Assembly (NCBI GenBank): GCA_964502005.1
Contig: CAZCUX010000029.1
Coordinates: 32,468 to 96,467, forward strand
Length of the DNA: 64,000 nt
Direction: 5' to 3'
Source of the DNA: an uncultured Enterobacterales bacterium
Lineage (GTDB): Bacteria > Myxococcota_A > UBA796 > UBA2385
In this document: positions 1 to 64,000 of the stretch, in pieces
How positions within the stretch are numbered: position 1 is the first letter of the stretch
Layout: each line of letters opens with the position of its first letter
Position numbers and translations under genes: made by a program
Notes under the pieces: model-generated
Told to the model about the DNA's origin: nothing
The model's database searches: none
The model's input: the letters and a program-made list of their open reading frames with translations, nothing else

Positions 1-604
1 GGCGCCGGCGCTGCGTGGGTTGCATGGGTGGCCGCGGCTGGCGACCTTGGCCGTGCTGCCCTTGGCAATTGGCGTCGGAAAGGGCTTCCAACGGCTTCCC
101 GTGGGAGCGATTGCGCTGGTTGCGGTGTGGGGCATCGGGGTGGCGGGAGGCCCGGCCACCCCCCTTCCGACGGACGATGGTGTGGTCGAGGGGCCGGTGC
201 TCGACCTCGTGTCGCTCGACGCGACCATCCCGGAGCAAGCGGTGCGCCAGCGCGCGTTGGCCGATGCGGTATTGTGGCGGCGCTTGCAGGGCGGGGTGGC
301 GACCTCCCTGGCGCCGTCGACCCCGCGCCTTACGGCTGCGGCATCGTTCAGCCTCGCGACCCGCCGGTTGACCGGCTGGGAGTCTCCCGTGTCCGCCCGG
401 TGTGCGCAGGAGGAGGCTGCGCGCTTGGTCGCCCGTGGCTTTCGGGCGGTGGTGTGGCATGGCGGGCATTCGTCCCATCCACTCGCGGCGGATTTGATGC
501 GCGACTTGGGTCCTCCTGCGATGGTCGCGAGCGGCTGGATGTGGACGCTTGACCCCCAAACGCCGGCTCCTCGGGACTGTCCCCTCCTTTCAGAGGTTCA
601 CTGA
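1..604 (+). CDS. 3' end of a hypothetical protein, 5'-truncated by the window edge
   Basis: The frame of ORF 20-604 has protein-like composition; the two alternative frames are Arg/Gly-rich GC artefacts. Its TGA stop (602-604) lies inside a copy of the TGAATCGCCATTCA palindrome. Confidence 0.4.
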   Translation, partial: APALRGLHGWPRLATLAVLPLAIGVGKGFQRLPVGAIALVAVWGIGVAGGPATPLPTDDGVVEGPVLDLVSLDATIPEQAVRQRALADAVLWRRLQGGVATSLAPSTPRLTAAASFSLATRRLTGWESPVSARCAQEEAARLVARGFRAVVWHGGHSSHPLAADLMRDLGPPAMVASGWMWTLDPQTPAPRDCPLLSEVH

Positions 605-616
605 ATCGCCATTCAT
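601..616. repeat. Palindromic element copy cTGAATCGCCATTCAt
   Basis: Half-sites TGAAT/ATTCA. The TGA at 602-604 is the stop codon of the plus-strand ORF. Confidence 0.9.
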
Positions 617-631
617 TTTGGGTGGACCGAA

Positions 632-647
632 ATGAATCGCGATTCAG
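632..647. repeat. Palindromic element copy aTGAATCGCGATTCAg
   Basis: The stop codon of the minus-strand dynamin gene (644-646) lies inside it. Followed by TTTTT. Confidence 0.9.
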
Positions 648-3139
648 TTTTTCGGAGAAGCGGCGTTATCCCCAGGGAGGGAGGTTTCGCGAACGAGCAG
701 CACGCCGATGGTCTCGACGCGCGTATTGGGTGCTAGGTTCCACGGTTCTTGGTTTCGTTCCGCGACGAGCTGGGTGCCCGCGCGGCCGGGAGAACGGGTC
801 CAAAAGGCGCGGGCGCCGGGGAGGTCGTACGGAATTCCGTCGACTACGACCTGCGCTTCGTCTACATCGGGCAAGCGCCAGCCAGGCAGCGCATCGGCCA
901 AGCGCGTGGCTTCTGCGTAAGTCAAGCAAGGAGCGGCAGCGTTGGCGTCGTTGGGGAGCACGCAGTCTCCGGGACTTGTTCCTGCCGGGAGCCGTGGTCC
1001 GCCCGCAAACGCCGCGCCGAACAGCGCCTCTACCTCGGAGGGGCGCAGTGTATGTCCACAGACCCCCTGTTCGGCGTTGCCATCGCAGGTGAAGCCGAAG
1101 ACCTCGGACGTTGCCAAGGGGTACTTCCAGATAGACACGCTCCGGCCAATGTCGGCCCAGGCCGAAGACAGGGCCTCGCGCGCTTCTTGCCAGACGGGGG
1201 CGTTCCAAGCGCTGCCCACGGAGTCTGCTGCGGTGCGCAGCTCGGTGGCGAGGTCGTGTCGCAGAGCGGGGTCGACCCCTATCGCCGTGAGTTGGGCGTC
1301 GATGTGGTCCAGGGTGGCTTGGGTGGACACCGCCAAGTAGATGCCTCCCGTCGCGGCAACCACCGTCGCCGCCTTTCCTGCGCGCATCGTCGCCTGGGTG
1401 AGGGCCCATCGGTGAAGCGCGCGAAGCGAAAGCTGTGTGGGGGGCTGGAGGAGGACGGCGAGCCGGTGGGCCATTTCGAGGTCAGTGGGGGCGGGCGGCG
1501 TGGTGGTGGCGGACGGTTGATTCAGGACGATGCTGTGGGCGACCTGAAGAAGAGCACGCTGTTTTGCCGGGAGCAGCCACGATTGCGAGAAACGTTGGAC
1601 CCATGTATTGCGTTGTGTATGCAACGCATGTTGGAGCGCGCTTCCTATCCACGGAAGGCCGGTGCAGGGGGCGGGCTGCCAGAGGCTTGGCGCGGTGCAA
1701 CCTTCGCCGAACCGCGTGGGAACGTCGAGGTTCAGTATTGTGTCGCCAGAAAGAAGAAGCGAAATCAGGGTGTCGCGCGCGGTGGGGTCGGCGTGGGTCC
1801 ATCGCGCCGGTCGTGCCGCCAGTCGCGACAATTCGACGAGGCAACGCCGCCAAGTGCCTCCCGCTGGACTTCGGAGCAGAAACTCGTGGGTGTCCAACAG
1901 ATGGACCGCCTGGAGACACACCTGCAATTGGGGGTCGGATTGGCGCTGAAGCCATGCGAGCACGGGAACAAGACTGGCCTCGTCTGGCGGAGGCACGGTA
2001 GACCGCTGCACACGCAGAATGCGCAGCTCTTCGCGCCAGTCCGCGTGGAACTGCTGCAGCACGTTTTCTACGGCGGAGGGGCCTTTGTCACGTTGCTCGT
2101 CCAGCACGCGTTGGGCGACGAGGCGTCGGATGCGGTTGTGCTCGACGGAGCGCTTGGTTTGCACGAGGCGCTTTCGCTGTATGCGTTCGGCTTGGAGATT
2201 TCGCAATACATCGCGGACGGGACCGGTGCCGGGCAAGTGGAGGTCGGTTCCTTGGGTGGAGCAGTAGACGACGCCCGCCAGATTGCCGCGAAAGCGCGCG
2301 CGGAGGTCTTCTTCTAACTCCTTGAGTTGCTCTTCGCGGCTTGGGCCCCTTCGGCGGACACGAACCTTGTCGACCATAGTAAGCACAATCCAGGTGCGGC
2401 CGGTGATGCGCGCAAGTCTCTCCAATAGCTGCGTTTCGTCTTCGGAGCCGGCGCGGGTTGCGTCGCAAATCAACAATGCAGCATCACAGCGCCCCAGCTC
2501 TTCGTCGACGCGCAGCAGGTGGGACGGGTGCTCGCTTCCGACGCCGGGAGTGTCTACCAGCACGAGGTCTGCGAGGAGGGGATGGGACAATCGAAGACGC
2601 ACCCGCGCGGGTGCGTTGGGGCCTTGTGCGCGAAGGGCGGTCGCCAAACGTTCGCTTGGGAGCGGTCCCCAACTTCCGTCCGAGAACTGTTGGTCACAGT
2701 CGTTGGTGGTGCCTTCCTGCAACTCGGTAACGCAGCCGGTGGTGGGTTCGACGTCGGCGGGGAGGCGGGTGCCCAGTCCTACCAGCGCATTGAGCAAAGA
2801 TGACTTTCCGCTCGAAAACCCGCCCACCAAGGCGACGCGAAGTGCGGGTCCGTCATCGGGGGGCGTGCCCAAGGCCCGCGTGAGGACCGACTGTGCGCAA
2901 GGTGTGAGCAGCTCGGGCGACAGCGTTATATTGGACGTTCGGGTGTCCGCGCGCAGCTCGTCGAGCATCGTAGCGACGAGGTCTTCGGATAGGGCGGCGG
3001 ACGAAGTGGGTGGCGCGAGCGCGGGCCCGAGCGTTTCGAAGAGCGTGGCGGTCGAGGTCCATGGGCCGCGGTGCGCGAGTTCTGCGAGCCATGGCAAGGT
3101 GACGCGTTCGGGCACGGCCATGTGACGCGTCCCGTTCAA
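644..3139 (-). CDS. Bacterial dynamin-like GTPase (BDLP family), 831 aa, with a ~250-aa C-terminal extension
   Basis: P-loop ALVGGFSSGKSSLLNAL, G3 motif DTPGVGS, and a long helical stalk. The start ATG overlaps the stop of the upstream dynamin (ATGA at 3136-3139). The stop codon (644-646) is embedded in the TGAATCGCGATTCA palindrome. Confidence 0.85.
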   Translation of the reverse strand: MNGTRHMAVPERVTLPWLAELAHRGPWTSTATLFETLGPALAPPTSSAALSEDLVATMLDELRADTRTSNITLSPELLTPCAQSVLTRALGTPPDDGPALRVALVGGFSSGKSSLLNALVGLGTRLPADVEPTTGCVTELQEGTTNDCDQQFSDGSWGPLPSERLATALRAQGPNAPARVRLRLSHPLLADLVLVDTPGVGSEHPSHLLRVDEELGRCDAALLICDATRAGSEDETQLLERLARITGRTWIVLTMVDKVRVRRRGPSREEQLKELEEDLRARFRGNLAGVVYCSTQGTDLHLPGTGPVRDVLRNLQAERIQRKRLVQTKRSVEHNRIRRLVAQRVLDEQRDKGPSAVENVLQQFHADWREELRILRVQRSTVPPPDEASLVPVLAWLQRQSDPQLQVCLQAVHLLDTHEFLLRSPAGGTWRRCLVELSRLAARPARWTHADPTARDTLISLLLSGDTILNLDVPTRFGEGCTAPSLWQPAPCTGLPWIGSALQHALHTQRNTWVQRFSQSWLLPAKQRALLQVAHSIVLNQPSATTTPPAPTDLEMAHRLAVLLQPPTQLSLRALHRWALTQATMRAGKAATVVAATGGIYLAVSTQATLDHIDAQLTAIGVDPALRHDLATELRTAADSVGSAWNAPVWQEAREALSSAWADIGRSVSIWKYPLATSEVFGFTCDGNAEQGVCGHTLRPSEVEALFGAAFAGGPRLPAGTSPGDCVLPNDANAAAPCLTYAEATRLADALPGWRLPDVDEAQVVVDGIPYDLPGARAFWTRSPGRAGTQLVAERNQEPWNLAPNTRVETIGVLLVRETSLPGDNAASPKN

Positions 3140-4872
3140 GGCAAGGAGTCCAGTTCGGCGACGAGGGCGCGCAATTTTGCGGTGTGTTCGCTGGATGCAG
3201 GAGCGGAAATCGCGTCGATGCGACGGCGAAGCGCTTGTATTTCCGCTGTGACGTGCTGGTTGATGGCTGTCTGAAGCCTTTGCTCATGCTGGTCTATCGC
3301 GTTGCGCATCGACGCTCGAAGACCAGCGATGGCTTGCTGTGTGGTGGCGTCGGCGTCGACCACACTCCGGGTGGTGGTCGAAGACATTGTCGCTGCGCCC
3401 CATGCGATGAAGGGGAGAAGCCCTGGCGCGGTGAAGAGCGCGACGAGACCGGCGCCGACGGCCACTGCGAGCATATCGTTGCTCTCTTTGACCGTGCGCA
3501 TGCAGACATCGACATGTTGTGCTTCGACGCGCTTCGGGCCTTGGAGGGATAGCTTGGCTTCGGAGTCAATCAGCTCGGCCATTGCAAGCTGTAGCGCGCT
3601 TTTTGCGGCGTTTTGGTGGTGCTTGAGGTGGGCTTGGAGTCGGTCGGCAACTTCCTGAAGGACGGCTCTTGCCGCGTCTTTGTCGTCGGAACGGAGCTGA
3701 TTGGCCAAACGAATCCGCGCTTCGTCCAAGTCGACGTCGAGGCGAGACCGAAGCTGCTCTATGTGCGGCTTTTCGGAGGCGTGTACCTTTGTGGGCACAT
3801 TCGCCAGGACCTGTTGGAGCGTTCGTAGACGCTCGATGCGTCGGTTTGCTGCCTCTGCATCGAGGTGGGCGTCTTCGAGGCGCGCGCGGAGGGACAAACG
3901 CAAGCGTCGTTGCAGCGAGGTTTGCCGCTCGTTGTGCGCGTCCATCAACACTTCTACGCGTTGTTGGACGAGGTGTTCGTCCAGGAGCCCACGGAGCGTG
4001 GGGATACCCGAGGATTCGAGCGCCTCTATCTCTCCTGTGCCGACCTCGGGCCTGCCTATGCCCTCTACCTCGGCGATTGCGTCCTGGGCGTCGCGAGCGT
4101 CGGCGGCGGACACAAAAAGGATAGGTGGACAGCCGCCTGTCGCCTCCCGAACGGCGGACGCTATCCGGTCTTGTACGCGGGCCCGCTCGGCGCGGGTCGC
4201 GAGGGCGTCGGTGTGGTTGACGACGAGGAATGCGTTCTTGCGGTCCCCCAGAAGGACGTGCTCGCGCAGCAAACGAAGCTCGGCTTTGCCAAGTGGACGG
4301 TCGGCACGCGTCACGAATACCACAGCGTCGGCGCGGGGAAGCCACGCGAGGGTACAGCGTTCGCCGGCTAGCCCACCGGCTTGGGCGCCGGGTGTATCGA
4401 CCAGTTCTACTTCGGGCCCAGGCCAGCCCGGCGTTGTAATGGTGACCTCGACCTCCTCGGCGTCGGCCGAGCGGTCTTGGGCGAGCGTCGCGAGGTCGCG
4501 CAGCGGGCGTACGGGGCCGAGTGGTCTTCCCGGCAAACGTGCGCGGATGCCCTCGGTGCCCCGAGGGTCGCGGCGCACGCGGCAGACGGTCGCCGTGCAT
4601 TCACGCAGCTTCACGGGCACCACCTCGTCGTTCAGCAGCGCGTTGATGAGGGTGGACTTCCCCGCCTTGAATTCACCAACGAATGCAATTCGAAGGCGCT
4701 CCACCCGCAACTCTTGGTCCATTCGCCGCGCTTCACGCGCCAACTCTGGCTCTTCGGCACGTTCGGCCAGCGATGCGAGCGCCTGCAAGCGACTCCGCAG
4801 CTTTGGAATCTGGGTACGCAGGGCAGCAACGGCTTCGGAGGGGCGCGCGTCGCGTTCGAGAAGTGTGGACAC
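3136..4872 (-). CDS. Bacterial dynamin-like GTPase (BDLP family), 578 aa, first gene of a tandem pair
   Basis: P-loop FVGEFKAGKSTLINALL, G3 motif VDTPGAQ, a coiled-coil N-terminus, and a hydrophobic hairpin (LVALFTAPGLLPFIAWGAA) typical of a BDLP paddle. It is translationally coupled to the downstream paralogue. Confidence 0.85.
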   Translation of the reverse strand: MSTLLERDARPSEAVAALRTQIPKLRSRLQALASLAERAEEPELAREARRMDQELRVERLRIAFVGEFKAGKSTLINALLNDEVVPVKLRECTATVCRVRRDPRGTEGIRARLPGRPLGPVRPLRDLATLAQDRSADAEEVEVTITTPGWPGPEVELVDTPGAQAGGLAGERCTLAWLPRADAVVFVTRADRPLGKAELRLLREHVLLGDRKNAFLVVNHTDALATRAERARVQDRIASAVREATGGCPPILFVSAADARDAQDAIAEVEGIGRPEVGTGEIEALESSGIPTLRGLLDEHLVQQRVEVLMDAHNERQTSLQRRLRLSLRARLEDAHLDAEAANRRIERLRTLQQVLANVPTKVHASEKPHIEQLRSRLDVDLDEARIRLANQLRSDDKDAARAVLQEVADRLQAHLKHHQNAAKSALQLAMAELIDSEAKLSLQGPKRVEAQHVDVCMRTVKESNDMLAVAVGAGLVALFTAPGLLPFIAWGAATMSSTTTRSVVDADATTQQAIAGLRASMRNAIDQHEQRLQTAINQHVTAEIQALRRRIDAISAPASSEHTAKLRALVAELDSLP

Positions 4873-5189
4873 CGGTGCTTTCCTGGGAGTCTACGGATGG
4901 AAATGCGAAGATACACCGATAAGGAGACACAATGCGGAGCCGTTCGTCCGCTCGGGAATACACAACGGAAGGGAATGCGCACGTTACGCGGTTTTACGAA
5001 ATACCATCGTGGTACGCGATGGCTGCATTTCTCTTGCATTCCCACCTTCGGTCGGGAAAAGCAAGGCCATTTCATGGGTGCGCGTGCCGGTACCCCCATG
5101 TTTCCGACCGAAATTCGTGGTCGACGACGCCCAACGCGAAATCGTCCGGTTCGATTGCTTTGTGCCTGGAATCGTGCGTTGTCGCCCAA

Positions 5190-5205
5190 CTGAATCGCCA
5201 TTCAT
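5190..5205. repeat. Palindromic element copy cTGAATCGCCATTCAt
   Basis: In the dynamin-operon upstream / desaturase downstream gap. Followed by TTTTCT. Confidence 0.9.
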
Positions 5206-5234
5206 TTTCTGGAAGGGCCACAGGCGGAGCATCA

Positions 5235-6212
5235 TTACGTGCGAGAGGGCCCCTCTCTATTTTTTTGTGACCGACCCGGAAGACCGGGCTGACCGGCTTG
5301 CTCGGGGTGTCGTTCTACAAATGCGGCCTTCATCTCTTGTGCGGTTTGGCGAGAACCATCGTGGCTCCACCCCGGTGGACCCAACACGTAGCCCAATCGT
5401 TGTTGCAGCGAGAGGCCGGGTTGGCTCGCATCATGGGCCATGGCGAGTAGCTCGTGAAATGCAATGCGCAGCGGATTGAAGGTGTAGACTTGGGTGGTCA
5501 GGCCATAGATGGGAGGGTCTGCTGCATTTTCGGGGACAAATGTGCCGAACATGCGGTCCCAAAGAATAAAAACGCCGGCATAATTGGCGTCGAGATACCT
5601 TGGGTTGGTGGCGTGGTGAACGCGGTGGTGCGACGGTGTGTTGAACACCGCTTCAAACCAGGGCGGCATGCGATCGACCAGCTCGGTGTGAATCCAGAAC
5701 TGGTAAACCAAGTTGACGCCTCCGACGAATGCGAGCATCGCGGGATGAAAGCCCATCGCCAGAAGCGGTAGGTGAAAGAGAAAGCCCAGGGTCAGCTCAC
5801 CGGCCCAGGTTTGTCGCAAGGCAGTCGAGAGATTGTAATGTTGGGACGAATGGTGGGTGACGTGCGCGCCCCAAAACCATCGAATTTCGTGCATATATCG
5901 ATGATACCAATAATAACGGATGTCATCCAACACAAAGCAAAGCACAAACACCCACGGCGACCAACCGTAGGACTGGTCTGCAAACGAGAAGGGTGCCCAT
6001 TTGGTGACGACAGCCAACAACGTGCCCACGACGGCGCCGAGGGTCAGGCCGAGGAACAAGTTTCCGGTGCCCATGGTCAGGCTGGTGATGGTGTCGCGCA
6101 TCTCATAGCGGACCCGGCCCTTGCGCATCCCCCACGCGACCTCTGCGACCATCGCGAGGACAAAGCCGGGCACTGCCAAGTTGACGATGTCGGGGAGTTC
6201 GGGCATTGGCAT
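5235..6212 (-). CDS. Fatty-acid hydroxylase superfamily enzyme, sterol desaturase / C4-methyl sterol oxidase-like
   Basis: Three histidine boxes (HRYMHE, HVTHHS, HHRVHH) in a polytopic membrane protein, with LWDRMFGTF following the last box. Confidence 0.8.
   Translation of the reverse strand: MPMPELPDIVNLAVPGFVLAMVAEVAWGMRKGRVRYEMRDTITSLTMGTGNLFLGLTLGAVVGTLLAVVTKWAPFSFADQSYGWSPWVFVLCFVLDDIRYYWYHRYMHEIRWFWGAHVTHHSSQHYNLSTALRQTWAGELTLGFLFHLPLLAMGFHPAMLAFVGGVNLVYQFWIHTELVDRMPPWFEAVFNTPSHHRVHHATNPRYLDANYAGVFILWDRMFGTFVPENAADPPIYGLTTQVYTFNPLRIAFHELLAMAHDASQPGLSLQQRLGYVLGPPGWSHDGSRQTAQEMKAAFVERHPEQAGQPGLPGRSQKNREGPSRT
5243..5266 (+). terminator. Rho-independent terminator-like hairpin (GAGAGGGCCCCTCTC plus TATTTTTTT), plus-strand sense only
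   Basis: A GC-rich 6-bp stem is followed by a T7 run. It overlaps the last codons of the minus-strand desaturase gene. No plus-strand protein gene lies upstream. Confidence 0.45.
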
Positions 6213-8581: not shown

Positions 8582-9100
8582 TCAGTGGTTTGTGCCTTCC
8601 CGATACCAAACGTCAAAGAACGTCAGTTCTACGGCTGGCTCCGCACAGAAATACATCGTTGCAATTCCGTATGACCCCAACTCGCCGCCTTCGGTCTGCT
8701 CTACCCAAATTTGCTCTGGTTCGGGGAAAAAGAACGCGCCGCCGTCGTCCACCCAGTTTTCAAGATTGGGCGAGGTGCCCACGATGAATTCCCAGCCATT
8801 GACGGGACCCCCTTCGTTTTTCAGGCGAAGCTCCATACACGCGCCGCCGTCCCACACACTGGTTTGGGCCCAGTAGAGTTTGAAGCCGTTGGCGACGAGG
8901 ATGCCGCGACCGGAGCCGACGGGAGTGCTACCACCACCTTCCGAAGAGCCGTCTCCCGATTCCGTTTGCTCCGCGCCCAATCCCGAGCCGAGGCCCGACG
9001 CAGATCCCTCCACGCCGGTGTCGGTCTCCGAATTGGCCATGTAGCAACCCGTTGCCAAAAAAAGCGGCATCAGCCATTGAATTTGGGTTCCAAGGGACAT
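8582..9100 (-). CDS. Lipoprotein with a CBM2-like (carbohydrate-binding) domain
   Basis: Lipobox LFLATGC. A Gly/Ser/Glu-rich linker precedes a beta-sandwich-like C-terminus with conserved Trp and NGW motifs (LYWAQTSVWDGGACMELRL..VNGWEF). Start placed at the internal MSLG. Confidence 0.5.
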   Translation of the reverse strand: MSLGTQIQWLMPLFLATGCYMANSETDTGVEGSASGLGSGLGAEQTESGDGSSEGGGSTPVGSGRGILVANGFKLYWAQTSVWDGGACMELRLKNEGGPVNGWEFIVGTSPNLENWVDDGGAFFFPEPEQIWVEQTEGGELGSYGIATMYFCAEPAVELTFFDVWYREGTNH

Positions 9101-9403
9101 TGCGTGTTCTCCGGGGCGGAAATGCGGGGTGGTGCGAGGGGGCATTCGTTTTGACGATAGACCAGAGATGGACGGAATTCCACTCGGTTGATGCGTTTGC
9201 AGAACCGCGCGGACCTACAACCATCTTTCACGGTCATCGGAAAATCGCTCACGGGAGATGATAGCCGGATGGCACTCGATTGGACAGCCCCCCAACTTGG
9301 GCGTGTCGACATGAATGTCTGCTTTGTCGGGTTTCGTGTCGTCTACTGCCCTTTCACGGAAGCGTCACCCGTCGACGTACCTCCCCGGAGATAGCCGGCC
9401 GCC

Positions 9404-12036: not shown

Positions 12037-12978
12037 ATGCGCTTGTTGTTGCTGTCTTGTCTTTCGTTGTGGGTGGGATGTGCCGGTGCGTCCAAAAACG
12101 ACGGTACAGGCGCCACAAGCAGCTCCACCGCTGGCGAGGGAGAAGGGGAAGGCAGCGTTGACGCCGATGGCGACGGTGTTTCCGCAGGCGACGACTGCGA
12201 CGATAACGATAGCAACGTGTTCCCCGGTGCGCCGGAGCTGTGTGATGGCATCGACAATGATTGTGATGGCGCGCCCCACAGCGAAGAAGCCGATGACGAC
12301 GGCGATGGCGTCGCAGATTGTATGGCCTGTGCCGATGCCGGCTATTGGAATGCGCTGCGAGACGGCCTGACCGGCGAGGAGCTTCGGGCAGAGCTGTCCC
12401 AAAACCCTGACCCCACCTGCGATTACAGCCAGTCGAAGCGTGCGATTTACCAGAGCTTTGATTTGGAGTCCGGCAACGTTGTGACCTGCGTGTATACCGG
12501 CGACCAGGTGGCCATCGTCGGCGGCGGTCCCGAAGACGACGCCATGAACATCGAGCACACTTGGCCGCGCAGCGAAGGCGCCGAATCGGAGCCCGCATTG
12601 TGCGATGTGCACCACCTTTACCCCACCATGGTCGATGCAAACTCCGAGCGCGGCAGCAACCCCCTCGGCGAAGTGACAGGCACGGTCTATTGGAGTCGCG
12701 GAGGCTCTTCGCTTGGCCGTGACAGCGGCGGCACGACGGTCTTCGAGCCTCGCGACGCCCACAAGGGAAATGCTGCGCGCTCTATGTTGTATGTGTGGAC
12801 CCAATACGGCTACGCACCCTCGGCTGCGGAAAAAGACATGTACGCGGCCTGGAATGCCCTCGACCCCGTCGCTACGCGCGACGTCGAGCGCGATGCGGCC
12901 ACCAGCCGTTACCAATTCAACCACAATCCCTTTGTGGTGTGTCCCGCCTTCGCAGAACGTTTGTTGAATGCCCGCTGA
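12037..12978 (+). CDS. Secreted lipoprotein, extracellular endonuclease I (EndA/Vvn) family
   Basis: Lipobox LWVGCAG and an Asp/Cys-rich MopE-like linker (DADGDGVSAGDDCDDND...CDGIDNDCDG). Endonuclease-I motifs NIEHTWPRS and CDVHHLYP...N.ERGSNP. The stop TGA (12976-12978) lies inside the CTGAATCGCGATTCAG palindrome. Confidence 0.7.
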   Translation: MRLLLLSCLSLWVGCAGASKNDGTGATSSSTAGEGEGEGSVDADGDGVSAGDDCDDNDSNVFPGAPELCDGIDNDCDGAPHSEEADDDGDGVADCMACADAGYWNALRDGLTGEELRAELSQNPDPTCDYSQSKRAIYQSFDLESGNVVTCVYTGDQVAIVGGGPEDDAMNIEHTWPRSEGAESEPALCDVHHLYPTMVDANSERGSNPLGEVTGTVYWSRGGSSLGRDSGGTTVFEPRDAHKGNAARSMLYVWTQYGYAPSAAEKDMYAAWNALDPVATRDVERDAATSRYQFNHNPFVVCPAFAERLLNAR

Positions 12979-14269
12979 ATCGCGATTCAGTGGTTGGAAG
13001 CGCAGGAAATACCTGGGTTTTCTTGCTGGCTTGGATAACGCTGGACATTGTGTACTTTTTGTGGTATTGTTCGGATGTTCCTCGTCGACGGGCAAGCTGC
13101 CGGTGGCATCGTTGTTTGCGTCGTCCAGCGAGGCTGGTTCGACCTACGAAACGGTCACCGAAGAGAGCCCCTCGCCAACCGAAGACAGCGCCGCCATCGA
13201 CGGCTTGCCCGAAGACCCGCCATGGCCCACCGACGGCGATGGTGTGGATGCAGGCGGCGACATGGACTGCCCCGACCTTCTGACGCCGTGCAATCACGCC
13301 GTTCGACTGGCTGTGCGCGACGAAGCGGGTGCATTCTGGCCGATGGACGGCCCTCTCGCAATCCGTGCGAGTGTCCCCGATGTGATGATTGTAGACCACG
13401 GCGTTCTCGACGGTCGCCATTGGCGCTCGCTGTGGCTGACTTGGGTGGATGTCGACCCTTCCCATATTCCGGCGGAAGCCAACGCCGAAAACATCCTTAC
13501 TACGGCTGTGTTGGCCTTTCCCGATGATTTGGTGACCAACGCCGCGGCCTTTTTGGACCTATTGCACGGTGCCGGGCCCTACGATTGGGTGCGTCAACGA
13601 ACCGACACCTGGAAACAAGGGTACCGCATCGTCGACCCTGACCGGGAGGTCTTCTCCGACGGCGACACCGTCCAGCACGCGCTTCTCGTTATCGACCTTG
13701 ACTTGGAGAGCGCGCCGGAGTCCGTGCAAAACCACTTTTATGTGCTCACCTCCAACGATGGCTTTTCGTTTGAACGGGGCGCAGAGCTCGTCTCTGACCG
13801 CATTGGCACCGACCCCGATTGCTACCCGCTCGGGTCCGCCGACTTCCCTGCGCCCGACCAGTACCCGTCCGTGTTGCCCTTCTCACAATCGTTGGCCGGC
13901 GATGGCCGCTGGGCCTGCAATGTCGCGGGCTACCAACAATTCACGCGCTACGAAGGCACGTTGGCCCGGCAAGCGGAGACCGGCGAAGGCGCGCGGGGCA
14001 TCACCGTCACATCGACCACGATTGTCGATGGCGTGCGGCATGTATGGGGCCACGTCGACGCCGACCCCCCAACTACCGCGGGCCAGGTGGACTTTGTACA
14101 CACCATCGCCTACGACGATGGCTCCTACGCGCCTGTCGACCTTGTGGTCGATGCCGACGACCTTCCAGGCGGCGAGCATGGCATCCATGCGCCAACGCTG
14201 CTGCGGATTGGTTCCGGCATCGAATTGCTCGTCTACCACACACTGTTGGAGCCGCCGGGTGTCCACTGA
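12968..14269 (+). CDS. Hypothetical lipoprotein
   Basis: The n-region KRRK plus LFVVLFGC lipobox is followed by an acidic Pro-rich linker. It overlaps the nuclease gene by 11 nt, and its TGA stop (14267-14269) is again inside the palindrome. Confidence 0.5.
   Translation: MPAESRFSGWKRRKYLGFLAGLDNAGHCVLFVVLFGCSSSTGKLPVASLFASSSEAGSTYETVTEESPSPTEDSAAIDGLPEDPPWPTDGDGVDAGGDMDCPDLLTPCNHAVRLAVRDEAGAFWPMDGPLAIRASVPDVMIVDHGVLDGRHWRSLWLTWVDVDPSHIPAEANAENILTTAVLAFPDDLVTNAAAFLDLLHGAGPYDWVRQRTDTWKQGYRIVDPDREVFSDGDTVQHALLVIDLDLESAPESVQNHFYVLTSNDGFSFERGAELVSDRIGTDPDCYPLGSADFPAPDQYPSVLPFSQSLAGDGRWACNVAGYQQFTRYEGTLARQAETGEGARGITVTSTTIVDGVRHVWGHVDADPPTTAGQVDFVHTIAYDDGSYAPVDLVVDADDLPGGEHGIHAPTLLRIGSGIELLVYHTLLEPPGVH
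12975..12990. repeat. Palindromic element copy CTGAATCGCGATTCAG (perfect 16-mer)
   Basis: Contains the nuclease stop TGA (12976-12978) and codons 3-8 of the next gene. Confidence 0.9.
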
Positions 14270-14281
14270 ATCGCCATTCAG
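14266..14281. repeat. Palindromic element copy CTGAATCGCCATTCAG
   Basis: Contains the lipoprotein stop TGA (14267-14269). Confidence 0.9.
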
Positions 14282-16001: not shown

Positions 16002-17203
16002 ACGACCGCACGCTTTTGTGGGTCAGCGTCGTCGTTGTGGTCGGATTGCACCTTCCCGGCCTCGCGGCGGGGCCCCTCGCCGATGACCCTTTGCGTTGGG
16101 TAGAGGCTTGGACCGACGGGAGCGCGACGCTGCGCTGGTTTACGCAGCCCTTCCCGGACACGCCGGGGCCACTGCCCGAAGCATTCAGCCCAAAGCTCTA
16201 CCGGCCGATATGGCACCTTTCGTTTTATTTGGACGTTGTGCTCTTTGGCGCGCCGCGCGGGTTTGCGCCCTTGCTCGGCCCGCGGTTGGAGAGCCTGTGT
16301 TTGCACGTGCTCAACGTATGGCTGTTGGGGCGACTGCTTCGGAGGCACTTCCCCGATGCCCCGTGGAGCCTCGTAGCGGCTCTCTACGCGGTGCATCCGC
16401 TCCTCGTTGAGCCGACAGCCTGGGTGAGCGCGCGGTGCGGTCTGCTGGCCACCACGGGCCTGCTGTGGGCCGGCGTCGCGCGGCACCCGGTCGCGGTGGT
16501 GGGGGCGGTGATGCTTGCCGCGCTGTCGAAAGAAACGGGTCTCGTGGCGCCGTTTTTGCTCGCGGTCTGGTTGCCCGCCGAAACGCCCGGCCGAACCCGG
16601 AACGTAGCGTTGGCGACGGCGGTGGTTATCGGTGTGTTGGGTGTGCGCACCGTGATTTTGGGCACGCCCCTCGGGGGCTATGCCGACACCCTGCCCCTTG
16701 CCTCGGGAGCATGGTGGACCGGTTTGCGGGGACACATCAGCTTTCTCGTTGTGCCCGTGCCGCTGACGGTCGTGGGCGGGTGGACGCGCGTTGTTTTGGG
16801 AATGCTTGTGCTTCCGTTGCTCGCGGTTGGGTTTCGCAAAGGACAGGGACGCGTGGTAGCATGGCTGTTGGTCGCGCTCTTGCCCACTCTGTCTCTGTTC
16901 GCGCGTCCGTTGGATGGCCTCGATGCGCGCTTCCTCGCGGACGCGGTGCCGCCGGTTGTAGTGGCCCTGGTGATGGGCATACAAAGCGTGCCCGGCCGTT
17001 GGGCGGCGGTGCTGGGAGGAATCATTTGGCTTGGCTTGGTGGGCGCAGCAGCGGAGCGGGCGGACGCATTTCGAGAGGCCGCGATGCGCATCGAAACGGC
17101 ACGGGAGCAGCCGGTTCCGGTGCTTCCCGCGACGCAACGAGGGGTCCATTTGAATGCCAACTTATGGCCTGCGCTGTCCGAAGCGCCTTGGGCAGACAAA
17201 TGA
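15998..17203 (+). CDS. Polytopic membrane protein of the GT-C / DUF1736 (TMTC/PMT-like) family
   Basis: A YRPIWHLSFYLD motif and multiple TM helices. The GTG start overlaps the upstream stop (GTGA). The TGA stop (17201-17203) is embedded in the TGAATGGCGATTCA palindrome. Confidence 0.55.
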   Translation: MNDRTLLWVSVVVVVGLHLPGLAAGPLADDPLRWVEAWTDGSATLRWFTQPFPDTPGPLPEAFSPKLYRPIWHLSFYLDVVLFGAPRGFAPLLGPRLESLCLHVLNVWLLGRLLRRHFPDAPWSLVAALYAVHPLLVEPTAWVSARCGLLATTGLLWAGVARHPVAVVGAVMLAALSKETGLVAPFLLAVWLPAETPGRTRNVALATAVVIGVLGVRTVILGTPLGGYADTLPLASGAWWTGLRGHISFLVVPVPLTVVGGWTRVVLGMLVLPLLAVGFRKGQGRVVAWLLVALLPTLSLFARPLDGLDARFLADAVPPVVVALVMGIQSVPGRWAAVLGGIIWLGLVGAAAERADAFREAAMRIETAREQPVPVLPATQRGVHLNANLWPALSEAPWADK

Positions 17204-17215
17204 ATGGCGATTCAG
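17200..17215. repeat. Palindromic element copy aTGAATGGCGATTCAg
   Basis: Contains the GT-C membrane protein stop TGA (17201-17203). Confidence 0.9.
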
Positions 17216-36048: not shown

Positions 36049-36064
36049 ATGAATGGTGATTCAT
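36049..36064. repeat. Palindromic element copy aTGAATGGTGATTCAt
   Basis: About 50 nt downstream of recX. Confidence 0.8.
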
Positions 36065-42561: not shown

Positions 42562-42577
42562 CTGAATGACGGTTCAG
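42562..42577. repeat. Degenerate palindromic element copy cTGAATGACGGTTCAg
   Basis: 27 nt downstream of the sulP stop. Followed by TTTGG. Confidence 0.7.
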
Positions 42578-63441: not shown

Positions 63442-63560
63442 GGGTTCGGGAGCGCCCTCCTCCCGTTGACTGTGGGTGTTGCTTCGGGTTGGTTTTTCTG
63501 TAGGATGTTGGCTTGGTTTGTTGCGGTTTGTGTTGGGCTATCGTTGGTATGTTCCGTAGC

Positions 63561-64000
63561 ATCGCGATTCAGCCCAAGAAACAAACGCCCAACGCCCATG
63601 ACACAAGCCAACCCACCCCCAACCAAGAATGCAGCGAAAAAGTTGTGTGTGTGGGTGTCGCACACGCGAAGCGGTGGACTCCTCCCTCGGAGTCTGGACG
63701 AAAGGAGGCCGCCCTGGCAACCAAGAAGCCAAGAACCCAAGCCATCCGCAAGCCCCTGAATCGCGATTCAGCCCAAGAAACAAACGCCCAAAGCCCATGA
63801 CACAAGCCAACCCGCCCCCAACCAAGAATGCAGCGAAAAAGGGGGGTGTGGGGGTGTCGCGTACGCGAAGCGGGAGCCCACCCCCACCGGGGAGAGCCCG
63901 AGGGAGCCCCCTCCCTCGGAGTCTGGACGAAAGGAGGCCGCCCTGGCAACCAAGAAGCCAAGAACCCAAGCCATCCGCAAGCCCCTGAATCGCGATTCAG
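63561..64000. repeat. Tandem array of ~200-230-bp noncoding units delimited by CTGAATCGCGATTCAG palindromes (array truncated by the window end)
   Basis: 63573-63771 and 63772-64000 are about 90% identical. Each unit starts CCCAAGAAACAAACGCCCAA, contains GTGTG...CACAC and GGACTCC...GGAGTC hairpins and an AAGGAGG motif, and ends in the palindrome (63756-63771, 63985-64000; a half copy lies at 63561-63572). Unit lengths of 199 and 229 nt are not multiples of 3. Confidence 0.85.

What the first reader, a model, noticed from the sequence alone, without database searches (positions are those of the whole stretch)
644..4872. Translationally coupled tandem pair of bacterial dynamin-like proteins
Two BDLP-family GTPases (578 aa and 831 aa), each with a P-loop and DTPG motif, are fused by an ATGA overlap. 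This is the two-gene arrangement seen for DynA/LeoA/BDLP-type systems. Those systems are implicated in membrane remodelling and repair, and in at least one case in limiting phage-induced lysis.

The upstream copy carries a hydrophobic paddle-like hairpin. The downstream copy carries a ~250-aa C-terminal extension (see the separate finding on the 644-1400 tail). The 360-bp leader (4873-5234) contains a palindrome copy.
Basis: partly seen in the sequence, partly recalled or inferred. Interest (0 to 1): 0.55.

Follow-up and report, generated by a model that had tools for sequence, protein, structure and literature searches.

The report
Bacterial dynamin pair with receptor-like partner
Two adjacent genes encode an ordinary-looking pair of bacterial dynamin-like membrane-remodelling GTPases, but the second protein seems to cross the membrane once and carry a small lectin-like binding domain outside the cytoplasm, an arrangement not described for bacterial dynamins in the papers I searched.

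Summary
On the minus strand, dlpA (3136-4872, 578 aa) and dlpB (644-3139, 831 aa) both score well above Pfam's Dynamin_N threshold. Both have P-loop, DTPG and G4 motifs. Their overlap is 4 nt, but it reads TTGA, not ATGA.

DlpA is a canonical BDLP: G domain, helical stalk and a 32-residue hydrophobic hairpin paddle.

DlpB has a dynamin G domain and an all-helical region. From residue 290 onward it is nearly an orphan: three or four orthologues among about 15 billion proteins. In place of a paddle hairpin it has one 23-residue uncharged segment with positive-inside flanks. A poorly conserved linker follows, then a roughly 135-aa domain with the CxTWxEA...GWRLPxxE signature of the Lcl_C/DUF1566 and FGE-sulfatase lectin-like group. 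That homology is weak but consistent.

In relatives of the pair, the second protein carries FGE-sulfatase, SH3_3 or a Cys-rich Sel1-like region behind a similar hydrophobic segment.

Best reading: a heterotypic BDLP pair whose second member is a bitopic, receptor-like dynamin with an interchangeable extracytoplasmic binding module.

The neighbourhood is housekeeping, not a defence island. Paired BDLPs are a known kind; this is a new variant. The topology is inferred, not shown.

The parts
3136..4872 (-). dlpA coding sequence: 578 aa, GTG start, TGA stop. A canonical bacterial dynamin-like protein.
   Evidence: ORF found. Pfam Dynamin_N E 2e-19. PADLOC LeoBC model matches residues 30-557. Full-length relatives are aligned in A6.
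4878..4884 (-). Shine-Dalgarno-like AGGAAAG, 5 nt upstream of the dlpA GTG start
   Evidence: Read directly from the sequence.
4216..4689 (-). DlpA GTPase domain (Dynamin_N match, aa 62-219), with G1 GEFKAGKST, G3 DTPG and G4 NHTD
3382..3477 (-). DlpA hydrophobic hairpin ('paddle'), aa 466-497
   Evidence: Kyte-Doolittle mean 2.0-2.1. A Gly/Ala-rich hydrophobic block is conserved at this position across the A family.
3136..3139 (-). TTGA junction: the TTG start of dlpB overlaps the TGA stop of dlpA
   Evidence: The orthologue L001 has GTGA at the same place.
644..3139 (-). dlpB coding sequence: 831 aa. A dynamin-like GTPase with a putative membrane span and a C-terminal lectin-like domain.
2378..2836 (-). 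DlpB GTPase domain (Dynamin_N match, aa 102-254), with G1 GGFSSGKSS, G3 DTPG and G4 TMVD
   Evidence: AF2 pLDDT is 84-95 over most of aa 100-340.
1373..2239 (-). DlpB helical region (presumed neck and trunk), aa 301-589. It includes the DWREE motif shared with the partner proteins of related pairs.
   Evidence: The AF2 model is all-helical here, but confident only for aa 306-352. Foldseek aligns 520-630 columns with IniA, BDLP and Cj-DLP at low TM-score. W368 and E371 are invariant in alignment A2.
1304..1372 (-). DlpB single uncharged segment, aa 590-612 (AATVVAATGGIYLAVSTQATL...). Putative membrane span.
   Evidence: Kyte-Doolittle mean 1.46, with net flank charge +3 before and -2 after. The orthologue L001B scores 1.82 with +4/-2. 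Related partner proteins show the same pattern.
1100..1303 (-). DlpB helical linker, aa 613-680. This is the least conserved part of the protein.
   Evidence: Alignment with P0002. AF2 predicts helices 573-671.
680..1099 (-). DlpB C-terminal lectin-like domain, aa 681-820 (Lcl_C/DUF1566- or FGE-type), with 4 conserved Cys and the motif C-L-T-Y-A-E-A...P-G-W-R-L-P-D-x-D-E-A
   Evidence: Lcl_C hits in three orthologues in the same register, E 0.0026-0.011. hhalign against the FGE domains of paralogous partners gives 76.5% probability. The only metagenome match is a Fib_succ_major lipoprotein.
5190..5205 (.). Copy of the dispersed palindrome CTGAATCGC(C/G)ATTCA in the dlpA leader, about 30 nt after the stop of the upstream fatty-acid hydroxylase gene
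601..647 (.). Two more copies of the same palindrome (601-616 and 632-647) at the 3' end of dlpB. The TGA of the second copy is the dlpB stop codon.

Best explanation
dlpA and dlpB encode a co-expressed heterotypic pair of bacterial dynamin-like proteins.

DlpA is a standard BDLP: G domain, helical neck and trunk, and a hydrophobic hairpin that dips into the cytoplasmic leaflet of the inner membrane.

DlpB keeps the dynamin G domain and a helical stalk. Where a paddle hairpin would be, it has a single 23-residue uncharged helix that most likely spans the inner membrane, N-terminus in and C-terminus out. That would place a roughly 65-aa helical linker and a roughly 135-aa C-type-lectin-like domain (Lcl_C/DUF1566 and FGE-sulfatase group) in the periplasm. 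The layout resembles receptor kinases such as PknB: cytoplasmic enzyme, membrane span, external binding module.

Proposed mechanism: the outer domain binds an envelope glycan or polymer, and so fixes or triggers where the DlpA/DlpB complex assembles. GTP-dependent G-domain dimerisation and stalk movements then tether, fuse or reseal the inner membrane at that place, as proposed for other BDLP pairs.

Shown here:
- the family assignment of both G domains;
- the full BDLP architecture of DlpA;
- conservation of the pairing;
- the rarity of DlpB;
- clearly significant FGE-sulfatase domains, and a weaker but above-threshold SH3_3 domain, behind a hydrophobic segment in the partner proteins of related pairs.

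Inferred:
- the membrane-spanning topology;
- the lectin-like fold of the window's own tail (remote homology only);
- heterodimerisation;
- the ligand;
- the physiological role.
For: 1. Both proteins pass Pfam Dynamin_N. PDB sequence matches and Foldseek matches are all BDLP, IniA, mitofusin or Cj-DLP.

2. Eight loci carry an A-type gene followed directly by a long B-type gene. The junction ranges from an 11-nt overlap to a 98-nt gap. In a bit-score matrix, A proteins score 100-1200 bits with other A proteins and B proteins 46-925 with other B proteins. A-to-B cross scores are 69 bits or less. This points to an old, co-evolving pair.

3. DlpB has one uncharged segment, aa 590-612, with net flank charges of +3 and -2. 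L001B (+4/-2), L005B (+5/0), L007B (+3/-4) and L088B (+4/-4) show the same positive-inside pattern. L090B has a very hydrophobic segment (Kyte-Doolittle 2.64) only about 22 residues before its C-terminal domain. That is too short a distance for the chain to run back along a dynamin trunk.

4. Domains found behind that segment in partner proteins are FGE-sulfatase (L090B, E 7e-27; L005B, E 2e-18), SH3_3 (L004B, E 6e-7) and a Cys-rich Sel1-like repeat region (L088B, 16 Cys in 290 aa). From my own knowledge of these families, such modules are typical of secreted or periplasmic proteins.

5. The window's tail:
- Lcl_C is the top Pfam hit in three orthologues in the same register (profile positions 7-95 of 117, E 0.0026-0.011).
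- hhalign against the FGE domains of L090B and L005B gives 76.5% probability on the signature motif.
- The only hit in 241 million metagenome records is a lipoprotein of the related Fib_succ_major family.

6. The linker after the segment is the least conserved part of DlpB. That fits a spacer better than helices packed into a neck bundle.

7. The published Cj-DLP1/2 operon includes a gene for an HcpA-like protein (PMC6104087). From my own knowledge, HcpA-type proteins are Cys-rich Sel1-repeat proteins that are exported. That would be a precedent for linking DLP pairs to such envelope modules.
Against: - The hydrophobicity of the window's own segment is marginal (Kyte-Doolittle 1.46). No dedicated topology predictor was available.
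- The window's tail gives no Pfam hit at all, even at E up to 10. The orthologues' Lcl_C scores (16-18.5 bits) are far below the gathering score of 34.9. A profile of the tail finds nothing in the PDB.
- AF2 models of the tail are unusable (pLDDT 37; below 50 in the full-length model). The stalk is also modelled with low confidence.
- The roughly 65 helical residues after the segment are about as long as DlpA's post-paddle helices. A classical BDLP fold with a degenerate paddle and a cytoplasmic appended domain therefore remains possible.
- FGE-sulfatase domains also serve as cytoplasmic sensors in STAND NTPases (PMC13581612).
- One paralogue (L002B) has a two-segment hairpin and no recognisable end domain.
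- No experimental data exist for any member of this clade.
Confidence: 0.55

Rival explanations
1. This is an ordinary, wholly cytoplasmic BDLP pair. On this reading the hydrophobic stretch of DlpB is a shortened paddle that only dips into the inner leaflet. Residues 613-671 run back along the trunk as in Nostoc BDLP. The C-terminal domain is then a cytoplasmic adaptor or self-assembly module sitting near the neck and G domain.
For: - The order of elements matches a BDLP: G domain, helices, hydrophobic tip, about 65 helical residues.
- Foldseek aligns 520-630 columns with IniA, BDLP and Cj-DLP2.
- Hydrophobicity of the window's segment is modest (1.46).
- The published Lcl C-terminal domain lacks disulfide bonds and forms trimers (PMC11162425), so a lectin-like fold need not be extracytoplasmic.
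- FGE domains do occur in cytoplasmic STAND proteins (PMC13581612).
Against: - A single uncharged helix of 17-23 residues cannot form the two-helix hairpin seen in DlpA.
- Positive-inside charge bias is seen in 5 of 6 B proteins.
- In L090B and L005B only about 20-35 residues separate the hydrophobic segment from the FGE domain. The chain cannot return along the trunk in that distance.
- The post-segment helices are the least conserved region of DlpB.
- The L088B tail has 5.5 Cys per 100 residues in an Hcp-like pattern, which suggests disulfide bonds.
Confidence: 0.27
2. This is an Eleos-type (LeoA/LeoBC) anti-phage dynamin system, with the C-terminal lectin-like or FGE-like domain acting as a sensor of a phage component.
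For: - The PADLOC models LeoBC and LeoA hit DlpA (E 3e-24 and 4e-22), and LeoA hits DlpB (E 1e-12).
- A two-gene dynamin operon protects Bacillus against jumbo phages, and that protection needs both P-loops (bioRxiv 10.1101/2022.05.11.491447).
- FGE-sulfatase domains are sensors in defence-associated STAND proteins (PMC13581612).
Against: - No neighbour within about 8-10 kb hits any PADLOC model, in the window's organism or in L001.
- The neighbours are RecN, a fatty-acid hydroxylase and a two-component system.
- NCBIfam's LeoA/HP0731 model scores 19.5 and 16.8 bits against a cut-off of 325.
- The PADLOC hits are what any BDLP would give, and the match to DlpB covers only its N-terminal region and the start of the G domain.
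- A domain behind a membrane span would face away from the cytoplasm, where phage components accumulate.
Confidence: 0.1
3. These are not dynamins at all but Era/EngA/HydF-type small GTPases fused to unrelated helical regions.
For: NCBIfam lists EngA, Era and HydF among the top hits, and MMR_HSR1 is also matched.
Against: - Those hits are confined to the G domain, mostly the P-loop, and lie 100-300 bits below their cut-offs.
- Dynamin_N is the best Pfam match and covers the whole profile.
- DlpA matches a full-length BDLP model.
- All of the top 50 structural matches for DlpB are dynamin-superfamily proteins.
Confidence: 0.01

Closest known systems
Campylobacter jejuni DLP1/DLP2 heterotypic pair (PDB 5OWV/5OXF; Liu, Noel and Low 2018, PMC6104087)
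   Same: - Two side-by-side DLP genes in one operon.
- Both have BDLP-type G domains and helical stalks.
- 5owv_C is the best PDB sequence match of DlpB (E 9e-9).
- The Cj operon also carries a gene for an HcpA-like protein (PMC6104087). From my own knowledge HcpA-type proteins are Cys-rich Sel1-repeat proteins. In relatives of the present pair (L088B, L007B) such a region is fused to the second DLP itself.
   Different: - The Cj pair is cytosolic and peripheral.
- Neither Cj protein has a membrane span or an appended binding domain.
- Sequence identity is confined to the G domain.
Nostoc punctiforme BDLP and Mycobacterium IniA (PDB 2J68/2J69, 6J72/6J73)
   Same: DlpA has the same order of parts: G domain, neck, trunk, hydrophobic paddle, returning helices. 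These are the top PDB sequence and fold matches for both proteins.
   Different: These proteins were studied as single proteins. They have no C-terminal globular domain. DlpB replaces the paddle hairpin with a single uncharged helix.
LeoA/LeoBC of ETEC and the Eleos two-gene dynamin defence system
   Same: Two-gene dynamin operon. PADLOC Leo models hit both proteins.
   Different: - No defence-island context.
- NCBIfam's LeoA/HP0731 model scores far below its cut-off.
- No lectin-like tail has been described for Leo proteins (my own knowledge; I did not check it here).
Mitofusin/Fzo1
   Same: Dynamin-superfamily fusion GTPases of the BDLP class that are anchored by true membrane-spanning segments placed after the helical domain. 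They are among the best structural matches.
   Different: They are eukaryotic, have two spans (or a debated single span), and carry no lectin-like domain on the far side of the membrane.
Receptor-type Ser/Thr kinases such as PknB (cytoplasmic enzyme, single span, external PASTA domains). An analogy of architecture only, from my own knowledge.
   Same: A large cytoplasmic nucleotide-dependent enzyme, one membrane span and an outer ligand-binding module that varies between relatives.
   Different: No sequence relationship. The output here would be mechanical membrane remodelling rather than phosphorylation.
Lcl C-terminal domain (DUF1566, PF07603) of the Legionella collagen-like protein (PMC11162425)
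   Same: The DlpB tail shares the core motif. Its orthologues give Lcl_C as the best Pfam hit. Lcl-CTD has a C-type-lectin-like fold and binds sulphated glycosaminoglycans.
   Different: Scores are below threshold. [quoted passage not shown] No GTPase is involved.

Membership tests
Dynamin superfamily, bacterial dynamin-like proteins (BDLP class) | Dynamin-type large GTPase domain scoring above Pfam's Dynamin_N gathering score | tested here: met
   DlpA 70.5 bits and DlpB 67.7 bits against a cut-off of 27. Both matches cover profile positions 1 to about 166 of 168.
Dynamin superfamily, bacterial dynamin-like proteins (BDLP class) | G1 (GxxxxGKS/T), G3 (DxxG) and G4 ((N/T)xxD) motifs intact in both proteins | tested here: met
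   Read from the sequence and from alignments A2 and A6. DlpA: GEFKAGKST, DTPG, NHTD. DlpB: GGFSSGKSS, DTPG, TMVD.
Dynamin superfamily, bacterial dynamin-like proteins (BDLP class) | Helical neck and trunk (stalk) following the G domain | tested here: inconclusive
   DlpA: effectively met. The full-length match to PADLOC LeoBC covers residues 30-557, and relatives carry PF21808. DlpB: the AF2 model is all-helical from 306 to 671 but confident only for 306-352. Foldseek aligns 520-630 columns with IniA, BDLP and Cj-DLP at TM-score 0.2-0.3. No sequence family matches this region.
Dynamin superfamily, bacterial dynamin-like proteins (BDLP class) | Membrane-binding paddle (hydrophobic hairpin) at the tip of the trunk | tested here: inconclusive
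   DlpA has a 32-residue hydrophobic hairpin, aa 466-497. DlpB has only one uncharged segment of about 23 residues, so it is not a hairpin.
Dynamin superfamily, bacterial dynamin-like proteins (BDLP class) | Side-by-side gene pair in one operon | tested here: met
   TTGA overlap in the window. The same A-then-B order is found in L001, L002, L004, L005, L007, L088 and L090.
LeoA/HP0731 family (NCBIfam NF041922) and DynA (NF052648) | Score above NCBIfam's curated cut-off | tested here: not met
   LeoA model: 19.5 and 16.8 bits against 325. DynA model: 34.6 and 28.7 bits against 1600.
Eleos (LeoA/LeoBC) anti-phage system | Both genes match the Leo models | tested here: inconclusive
   DlpA matches LeoBC (E 3e-24) and LeoA (E 4e-22). 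DlpB matches LeoA (E 1e-12), but only across its N-terminal region and the start of the G domain. Any BDLP would be expected to give such hits.
Eleos (LeoA/LeoBC) anti-phage system | Placement among known defence genes (60% of cases according to bioRxiv 10.1101/2022.05.11.491447) | tested here: not met
   None of 10 neighbouring proteins in L006 and L001 hits PADLOC. The neighbours are RecN, a fatty-acid hydroxylase and a histidine kinase with its response regulator.
Eleos (LeoA/LeoBC) anti-phage system | Protection against phage that depends on both P-loops | not testable with these tools
   Needs experiments.
Lcl_C / DUF1566 (PF07603), C-type-lectin-like group | Score above Pfam's gathering score (34.9 bits) | tested here: not met
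   The window's tail gives no hit even at E up to 10. The orthologues P0183, P0181 and P0002 score 18.5, 17.4 and 16.4 bits (E 0.0026-0.011). All three align in the same register, profile positions 7-95 of 117.
Lcl_C / DUF1566 (PF07603), C-type-lectin-like group | Core signature (C-x-T/D-W-x-E-A ... G-W/Y-R-L-P-T/D-x-x-E) and a C-type-lectin-like fold | tested here: inconclusive
   The motif is present and invariant in all orthologues. hhalign against the FGE domains of L090B and L005B gives 76.5% probability over 29 columns. The fold could not be checked because the AF2 model had pLDDT 37.
FGE-sulfatase (PF03781) | Score above the gathering score (23.3 bits) and a full domain of about 255 residues | tested here: not met
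   The window's tail gives no hit. P0002 scores 13.4 bits. At about 135 aa the tail is too short for the full domain. The feature is met by the paralogous partners L090B (95 bits) and L005B (67 bits).
Bitopic (single-span, N-in/C-out) membrane protein | One hydrophobic span of about 20 residues with positive-inside charge bias, and experimentally external C-terminus | tested here: inconclusive
   A 23-residue uncharged segment with Kyte-Doolittle mean 1.46 and flank charges +3/-2. It is stronger in the orthologue (1.82, +4/-2) and in paralogues. No dedicated topology predictor and no experiment were available.

The most novel reading that the evidence does not exclude
DlpB and its relatives are 'receptor dynamins'. 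On this reading, a periplasmic binding module (Lcl_C-like here; FGE-sulfatase, SH3 or Cys-rich Sel1 repeats in relatives) reads the state of the cell envelope. It passes that information through a single membrane span to a cytoplasmic dynamin GTPase pair. Inner-membrane fusion or repair is then switched on, or positioned, by an extracytoplasmic ligand. That would be a mechano-enzymatic counterpart of receptor kinases.
Probability: 0.3. Interest if true: 0.7.

Novelty: new variant of a known kind. Interest (0 to 1): 0.45.

Why it matters
What triggers bacterial dynamin pairs, and what places them on the membrane, is largely unknown. Published work speculates about envelope stress. An example is the HcpA-like gene in the C. 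jejuni operon (PMC6104087).

A clade in which the second dynamin is itself fused, through a membrane span, to interchangeable extracytoplasmic binding domains would give a direct, testable link between the envelope and the cytoplasmic GTPase machine. It would also provide constructs, such as tail swaps, to test that link.

It would add a bacterial example of a truly membrane-spanning BDLP-class protein. That bears on the long debate about mitofusin topology.

If the topology inference is wrong, this is simply one more divergent BDLP pair with an odd C-terminal domain.

Tried and rejected
Searches and models that gave little:
- AF2 on the tail alone with a 5-sequence alignment gave pLDDT 37.5. 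The model was unusable, so no fold search was run on it.
- AF2 on full-length DlpB with 53 sequences was confident only for the G domain and the first stalk helix.
- A sensitive HMMER search with DlpB residues 290-831 against 1.84 billion representatives found only DlpB itself and two fragments of orthologues.
- A profile of the tail searched against 5.8 billion proteins, and against the PDB, found only fragments of orthologues or nothing.
- A metagenome scan with the tail found one motif-level match, a Fib_succ_major lipoprotein.
- BLASTP of the window's tail against the L005B FGE domain found nothing.
- hhalign against L005B alone gave only 25% probability. Against a two-sequence FGE alignment it rose to 76.5%.

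Ideas tested and dropped:
- P0181 (249 aa) first looked like a free-standing tail protein. It is almost certainly the C-terminal fragment of a close relative of P0002, on a 1-kb contig.
- Synteny: the 142-aa genes upstream of the pair in the window and in L001 are unrelated, so the neighbourhood is not conserved.
- The leader shows no excess RNA structure (z = 0.96), no Rfam match and no sigma-70-like promoter.
- The 12-nt inverted repeat at 5047-5058 and 5101-5112 is only marginally above chance when searched across the window.
- Defence-island reading: rejected.
- EngA/Era-type reading: rejected.
- The scan of GTDB species genomes did not find the window's own organism. The best A-type relative there is 38% identical.

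Full report
**1. Observation**

On the minus strand there are two long ORFs at exactly the reported coordinates:
- dlpA, 3136..4872, 578 aa, GTG start preceded by AGGAAAG at 4878-4884;
- dlpB, 644..3139, 831 aa.

Both score far above Pfam's gathering threshold for Dynamin_N (70.5 and 67.7 bits against 27). They are real genes rather than the shadow ORFs that abound in this roughly 64% G+C sequence.

The junction reads ...CTTGCC-TTGA-ACGGG. An ATG lies 18 nt downstream, at residue 7, and the identical Logan protein P0001 (825 aa) was called from it. The orthologous locus L001 has GTGA at the same junction and no Met at the position of residue 7. The overlapping start is therefore the conserved one.

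The other details check out:
- P-loop, DTPG and G4 motifs are intact in both proteins.
- DlpA carries a 32-residue hydrophobic stretch with a central Pro/Gly turn, aa 466-497, with a Kyte-Doolittle mean of 2.0-2.1.
- The 362-bp leader contains a copy of a dispersed palindrome at 5190-5205.

**2. Family assignment**

DlpA aligns nearly end to end with PADLOC's LeoBC model (residues 30-557, E 3e-24). It also aligns with full-length relatives that share the Gly/Ala-rich hydrophobic block (alignment A6). Its best PDB sequence matches are Nostoc BDLP, IniA and mitofusin-2.

DlpB matches Cj-DLP (5owv_C), BDLP and IniA, but only through its G domain. An AF2 model of DlpB is confident for the G domain and the first long stalk helix (pLDDT 84-95 over most of aa 100-340). 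It is all-helical, but at low confidence, up to residue 671. All of its top 50 Foldseek matches in the PDB are dynamin-superfamily proteins: IniA, BDLP, Fzo1/mitofusin, Cj-DLP1/2, OPA1, dynamin, EHD and SynDLP. None is EngA or Era.

NCBIfam's LeoA/HP0731 and DynA models score far below their cut-offs. These are generic dynamin-family proteins, not members of those named families.

**3. Pairing**

The published view is that most bacterial DLPs occur as side-by-side pairs in operons and probably act as heterotypic complexes (PMC6104087).

Relatives of DlpA were located on their contigs. Each one is followed directly by a long second DLP:

| Locus | A protein (aa) | B protein (aa) |
|---|---|---|
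| L001 | 578 | 833 |
| L002 | 621 | 899 |
| L004 | 606 | 948 |
| L005 | 598 | at least 903 |
| L007 | 769 | at least 790 |
| L088 | 768 | 1036 |
| L090 | 574 | 897 |

Junctions range from an 11-nt overlap to a 98-nt gap.

An all-against-all bit-score matrix shows two lineages:
- A proteins score 100-1200 bits with other A proteins.
- B proteins score 46-925 bits with other B proteins.
- A-to-B cross scores are 69 bits or less.

The pair is therefore old and has evolved as a unit. The B protein of the window and of L001 is the most divergent branch.

**4. DlpB is nearly an orphan**

Among 5.8 billion clustered proteins, DlpB has only two full-length relatives:
- the identical Logan sequence;
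- P0002, 51% identical, from an ENA metagenome.

All other hits cover only the G domain.

A filter-free HMMER search with residues 290-831 against 1.84 billion representatives returned only DlpB itself and two fragments. A profile of the tail found only fragments of orthologues and nothing in the PDB. P0181, at 249 aa, looked like a free-standing tail protein. It is a fragment of a close relative of P0002, on a 1-kb contig.

**5. Anatomy of the DlpB C-terminal third**

The alignment with P0002 shows four zones:
- a strongly conserved G domain;
- a moderately conserved helical region that includes a DWREE motif shared with other B proteins;
- a poorly conserved zone at aa 585-680;
- a well conserved end domain, aa 681-820, with four conserved cysteines and the string C-L-T-Y-A-E-A-x(9)-P-G-W-R-L-P-D-V-D-E-A.

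At aa 590-612 there is a single uncharged stretch of 23 residues. Its Kyte-Doolittle mean is 1.46, and net flank charges are +3 before and -2 after. In P0002/L001B the corresponding values are 1.82 and +4/-2.

This differs from DlpA's hairpin. One helix of that length can span a bilayer but cannot form a two-helix paddle.

**6. The tail domain**

The window's own tail gives no Pfam hit, even at E up to 10. Its orthologues do give weak hits:

| Orthologue | Lcl_C score (bits) | E-value |
|---|---|---|
| P0183 | 18.5 | 0.0026 |
| P0181 | 17.4 | 0.0054 |
| P0002 | 16.4 | 0.011 |

- Lcl_C (PF07603, formerly DUF1566) is the best hit for the tail in all three.
- All three align in the same register, profile positions 7-95 of 117.
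- FGE-sulfatase is the next hit in the tail region of P0181 and P0002.
- All scores are below the gathering score of 34.9 bits.

Profile-profile comparison of the tail alignment with the FGE-sulfatase domains of two paralogous B proteins gives 76.5% probability (E 2e-5) over the signature motif.

The single match in 241 million metagenome records is a 197-aa lipoprotein of the Fib_succ_major family. That protein also weakly matches Lcl_C.

From my own knowledge, Lcl_C, FGE-sulfatase and Fib_succ_major are grouped in Pfam's C-type-lectin clan. The solved Lcl C-terminal domain is C-type-lectin-like and binds sulphated glycans (PMC11162425).

I conclude that the tail is probably a small lectin-like binding domain. 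This rests on remote homology, because the AF2 model of the tail was unusable (pLDDT 37.5).

**7. What the relatives show**

This is the most informative result. In the sister pairs, the B protein carries a hydrophobic segment or segments followed by a recognisable domain:

| Protein | Hydrophobic segment(s) | What follows |
|---|---|---|
| L090B | One very hydrophobic segment (Kyte-Doolittle 2.64, aa 637-653) | After about 22 residues, a full FGE-sulfatase domain (aa 676-892, E 7e-27) |
| L005B | One segment (flank charges +5/0) | FGE-sulfatase (E 2e-18) |
| L004B | Three segments, compatible with an in-out-in-out path under the positive-inside rule | SH3_3 (E 6e-7) |
| L088B and its orthologue L007B | One segment (+4/-4 in L088B, +3/-4 in L007B) | In L088B, a 290-aa acidic region with 16 cysteines in an Hcp/Sel1-like pattern; L007B is cut off by the contig end about 45 residues after the segment |
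| L002B | Two-segment hairpin | No recognisable end domain |

From my own knowledge, FGE-type lectin domains behind a span, SH3_3 and disulfide-rich Sel1 repeats are typical of extracytoplasmic proteins.

The short linkers in L090B and L005B leave no room for the chain to fold back along a dynamin trunk.

The published Cj-DLP1/2 operon contains a gene for an HcpA-like protein (PMC6104087). From my own knowledge, HcpA-type proteins are exported, Cys-rich Sel1-repeat proteins. That would be an independent hint that DLP pairs work together with such envelope modules.

**8. Context**

Upstream of dlpA lie a fatty-acid hydroxylase family gene, a 142-aa gene, recN and a histidine kinase with its response regulator. 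Downstream, seen on the Logan contig L006, are uncharacterised genes.

None of ten neighbouring proteins in L006 and L001 hits a PADLOC model. The neighbourhoods of the window and of L001 are unrelated. There is no defence island.

The leader has no excess RNA structure, no Rfam match and no sigma-70-like promoter.

The organism is not among GTDB species representatives. The nearest A-type relatives there come from uncultured proteobacterial, Planctomycetota and Myxococcales genomes.

**9. Mechanism**

Best-supported model, confidence about 0.55: DlpA and DlpB are co-translated and form a heterotypic BDLP complex on the inner membrane.
- DlpA inserts its hairpin into the cytoplasmic leaflet.
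- DlpB is anchored by one span.
- DlpB presents a lectin-like domain on a helical spacer of about 65 residues in the periplasm.
- Binding of an envelope polymer positions or triggers the complex.
- GTP-driven G-domain dimerisation and hinge movements then tether and fuse or reseal the membrane, as proposed for Cj-DLP1/2 and DynA.

What is shown: the family, the architecture of DlpA, the conservation of the pair, and the domain content of the relatives.

What is inferred: the topology, the fold of the tail, the interaction between the two proteins, the ligand and the physiological role.

Main rival, about 0.27: a classical cytoplasmic BDLP fold with a degenerate paddle and a cytoplasmic appended domain. 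In its favour:
- about 65 helical residues follow the hydrophobic segment;
- the hydrophobicity of the window's segment is modest;
- FGE domains act as cytoplasmic sensors in STAND proteins (PMC13581612).

An Eleos-like defence role (about 0.1) cannot be excluded, but context does not support it.

**10. Novelty and score**

What is new is a clade in which the second partner looks like a bitopic, receptor-like dynamin with interchangeable extracytoplasmic modules. The window holds its rarest form, with the Lcl_C-like tail.

Three full-text searches of the paper library, on paired BDLPs, on dynamin with FGE-sulfatase, and on bacterial dynamins with periplasmic domains, turned up no description of such an architecture. 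That is not proof of absence.

I rate it as a new variant of a known kind, with interest 0.45. The score is limited by the fact that the key claim, the topology, is inferred from sequence statistics and paralogues, not demonstrated.

Noticed in passing
window 601-616, 632-647, 5190-5205, 12975-12990, 14266-14281, 17200-17215, 36050-36064, 39732-39747, 42563-42577, 58925-58939, 63558-63572, 63756-63771, 63985-64000: A dispersed 14-16 bp palindrome with core TGAATCGCGATTCA, often CTGAATCGC(C/G)ATTCA. There are 22 strand matches, about 13 sites, at up to 3 mismatches. The number expected by chance is 1.55, and none of 100 shuffles reached 22. Copies bracket the dlpAB operon. Many lie on or just after stop codons: the palindrome's TGA ends dlpB at 644-646, and apparently also ends the ORFs that finish at 12978, 14269 and 17203. 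As RNA the stem would be too short and AT-rich for a terminator. A DNA-level role seems more likely: a protein-binding site, a REP-like element or an uptake-type sequence.
   Followed up: partly
window 5243-5257: A perfect GC-rich hairpin, GAGAGGGCCCCTCTC, followed on the plus strand by TATTTTTTTG. It looks like a terminator for the plus strand. It lies inside the last codons of the minus-strand fatty-acid hydroxylase gene. It is a single copy in the window.
   Followed up: partly
window 5047-5058 and 5101-5112: A 12-nt inverted repeat, TTCGGTCGGGAA / TTTCCGACCGAA, with 42 nt between the arms, in the dlpA leader. Similar half-sites elsewhere in the window are only marginally above chance. It could be an operator for the operon.
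   Followed up: partly
L088 3811-6918 (and the orthologue at L007 7565-9934): The second dynamin of this related pair ends in a 290-aa acidic region with 16 cysteines in an Hcp/Sel1-repeat-like pattern, behind a single hydrophobic segment. The C. jejuni dlp1/dlp2 operon carries a separate gene for an HcpA-like protein (PMC6104087). A functional link between dynamin pairs and Sel1-repeat envelope proteins may be general.
   Followed up: partly
L090 1838-4528 and L005 3330-6038: Dynamin-like proteins with a bona fide C-terminal FGE-sulfatase domain (E 7e-27 and 2e-18) directly behind one hydrophobic segment. My literature searches found no description of this architecture. L090B would be a cleaner test case for the topology than the window's own protein.
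   Followed up: partly
whole window; L006 (Logan SRR23848398 contig, 19.9 kb): The only other copy of this locus in the collections searched is a Logan assembly contig (DlpB 100% identical, DlpA 99%). The scan of GTDB species genomes did not return the organism; the best DlpA relative there is 38% identical. The window appears to come from a poorly sampled lineage.
   Followed up: no
window 8582-9145 (minus strand) and L006 144-1085: Near recN there is a 187-aa ORF with no Pfam match. On the Logan contig there is also an Endonuclease_1 protein carrying a MopE-like copper-binding motif. Neither was examined further.
   Followed up: no
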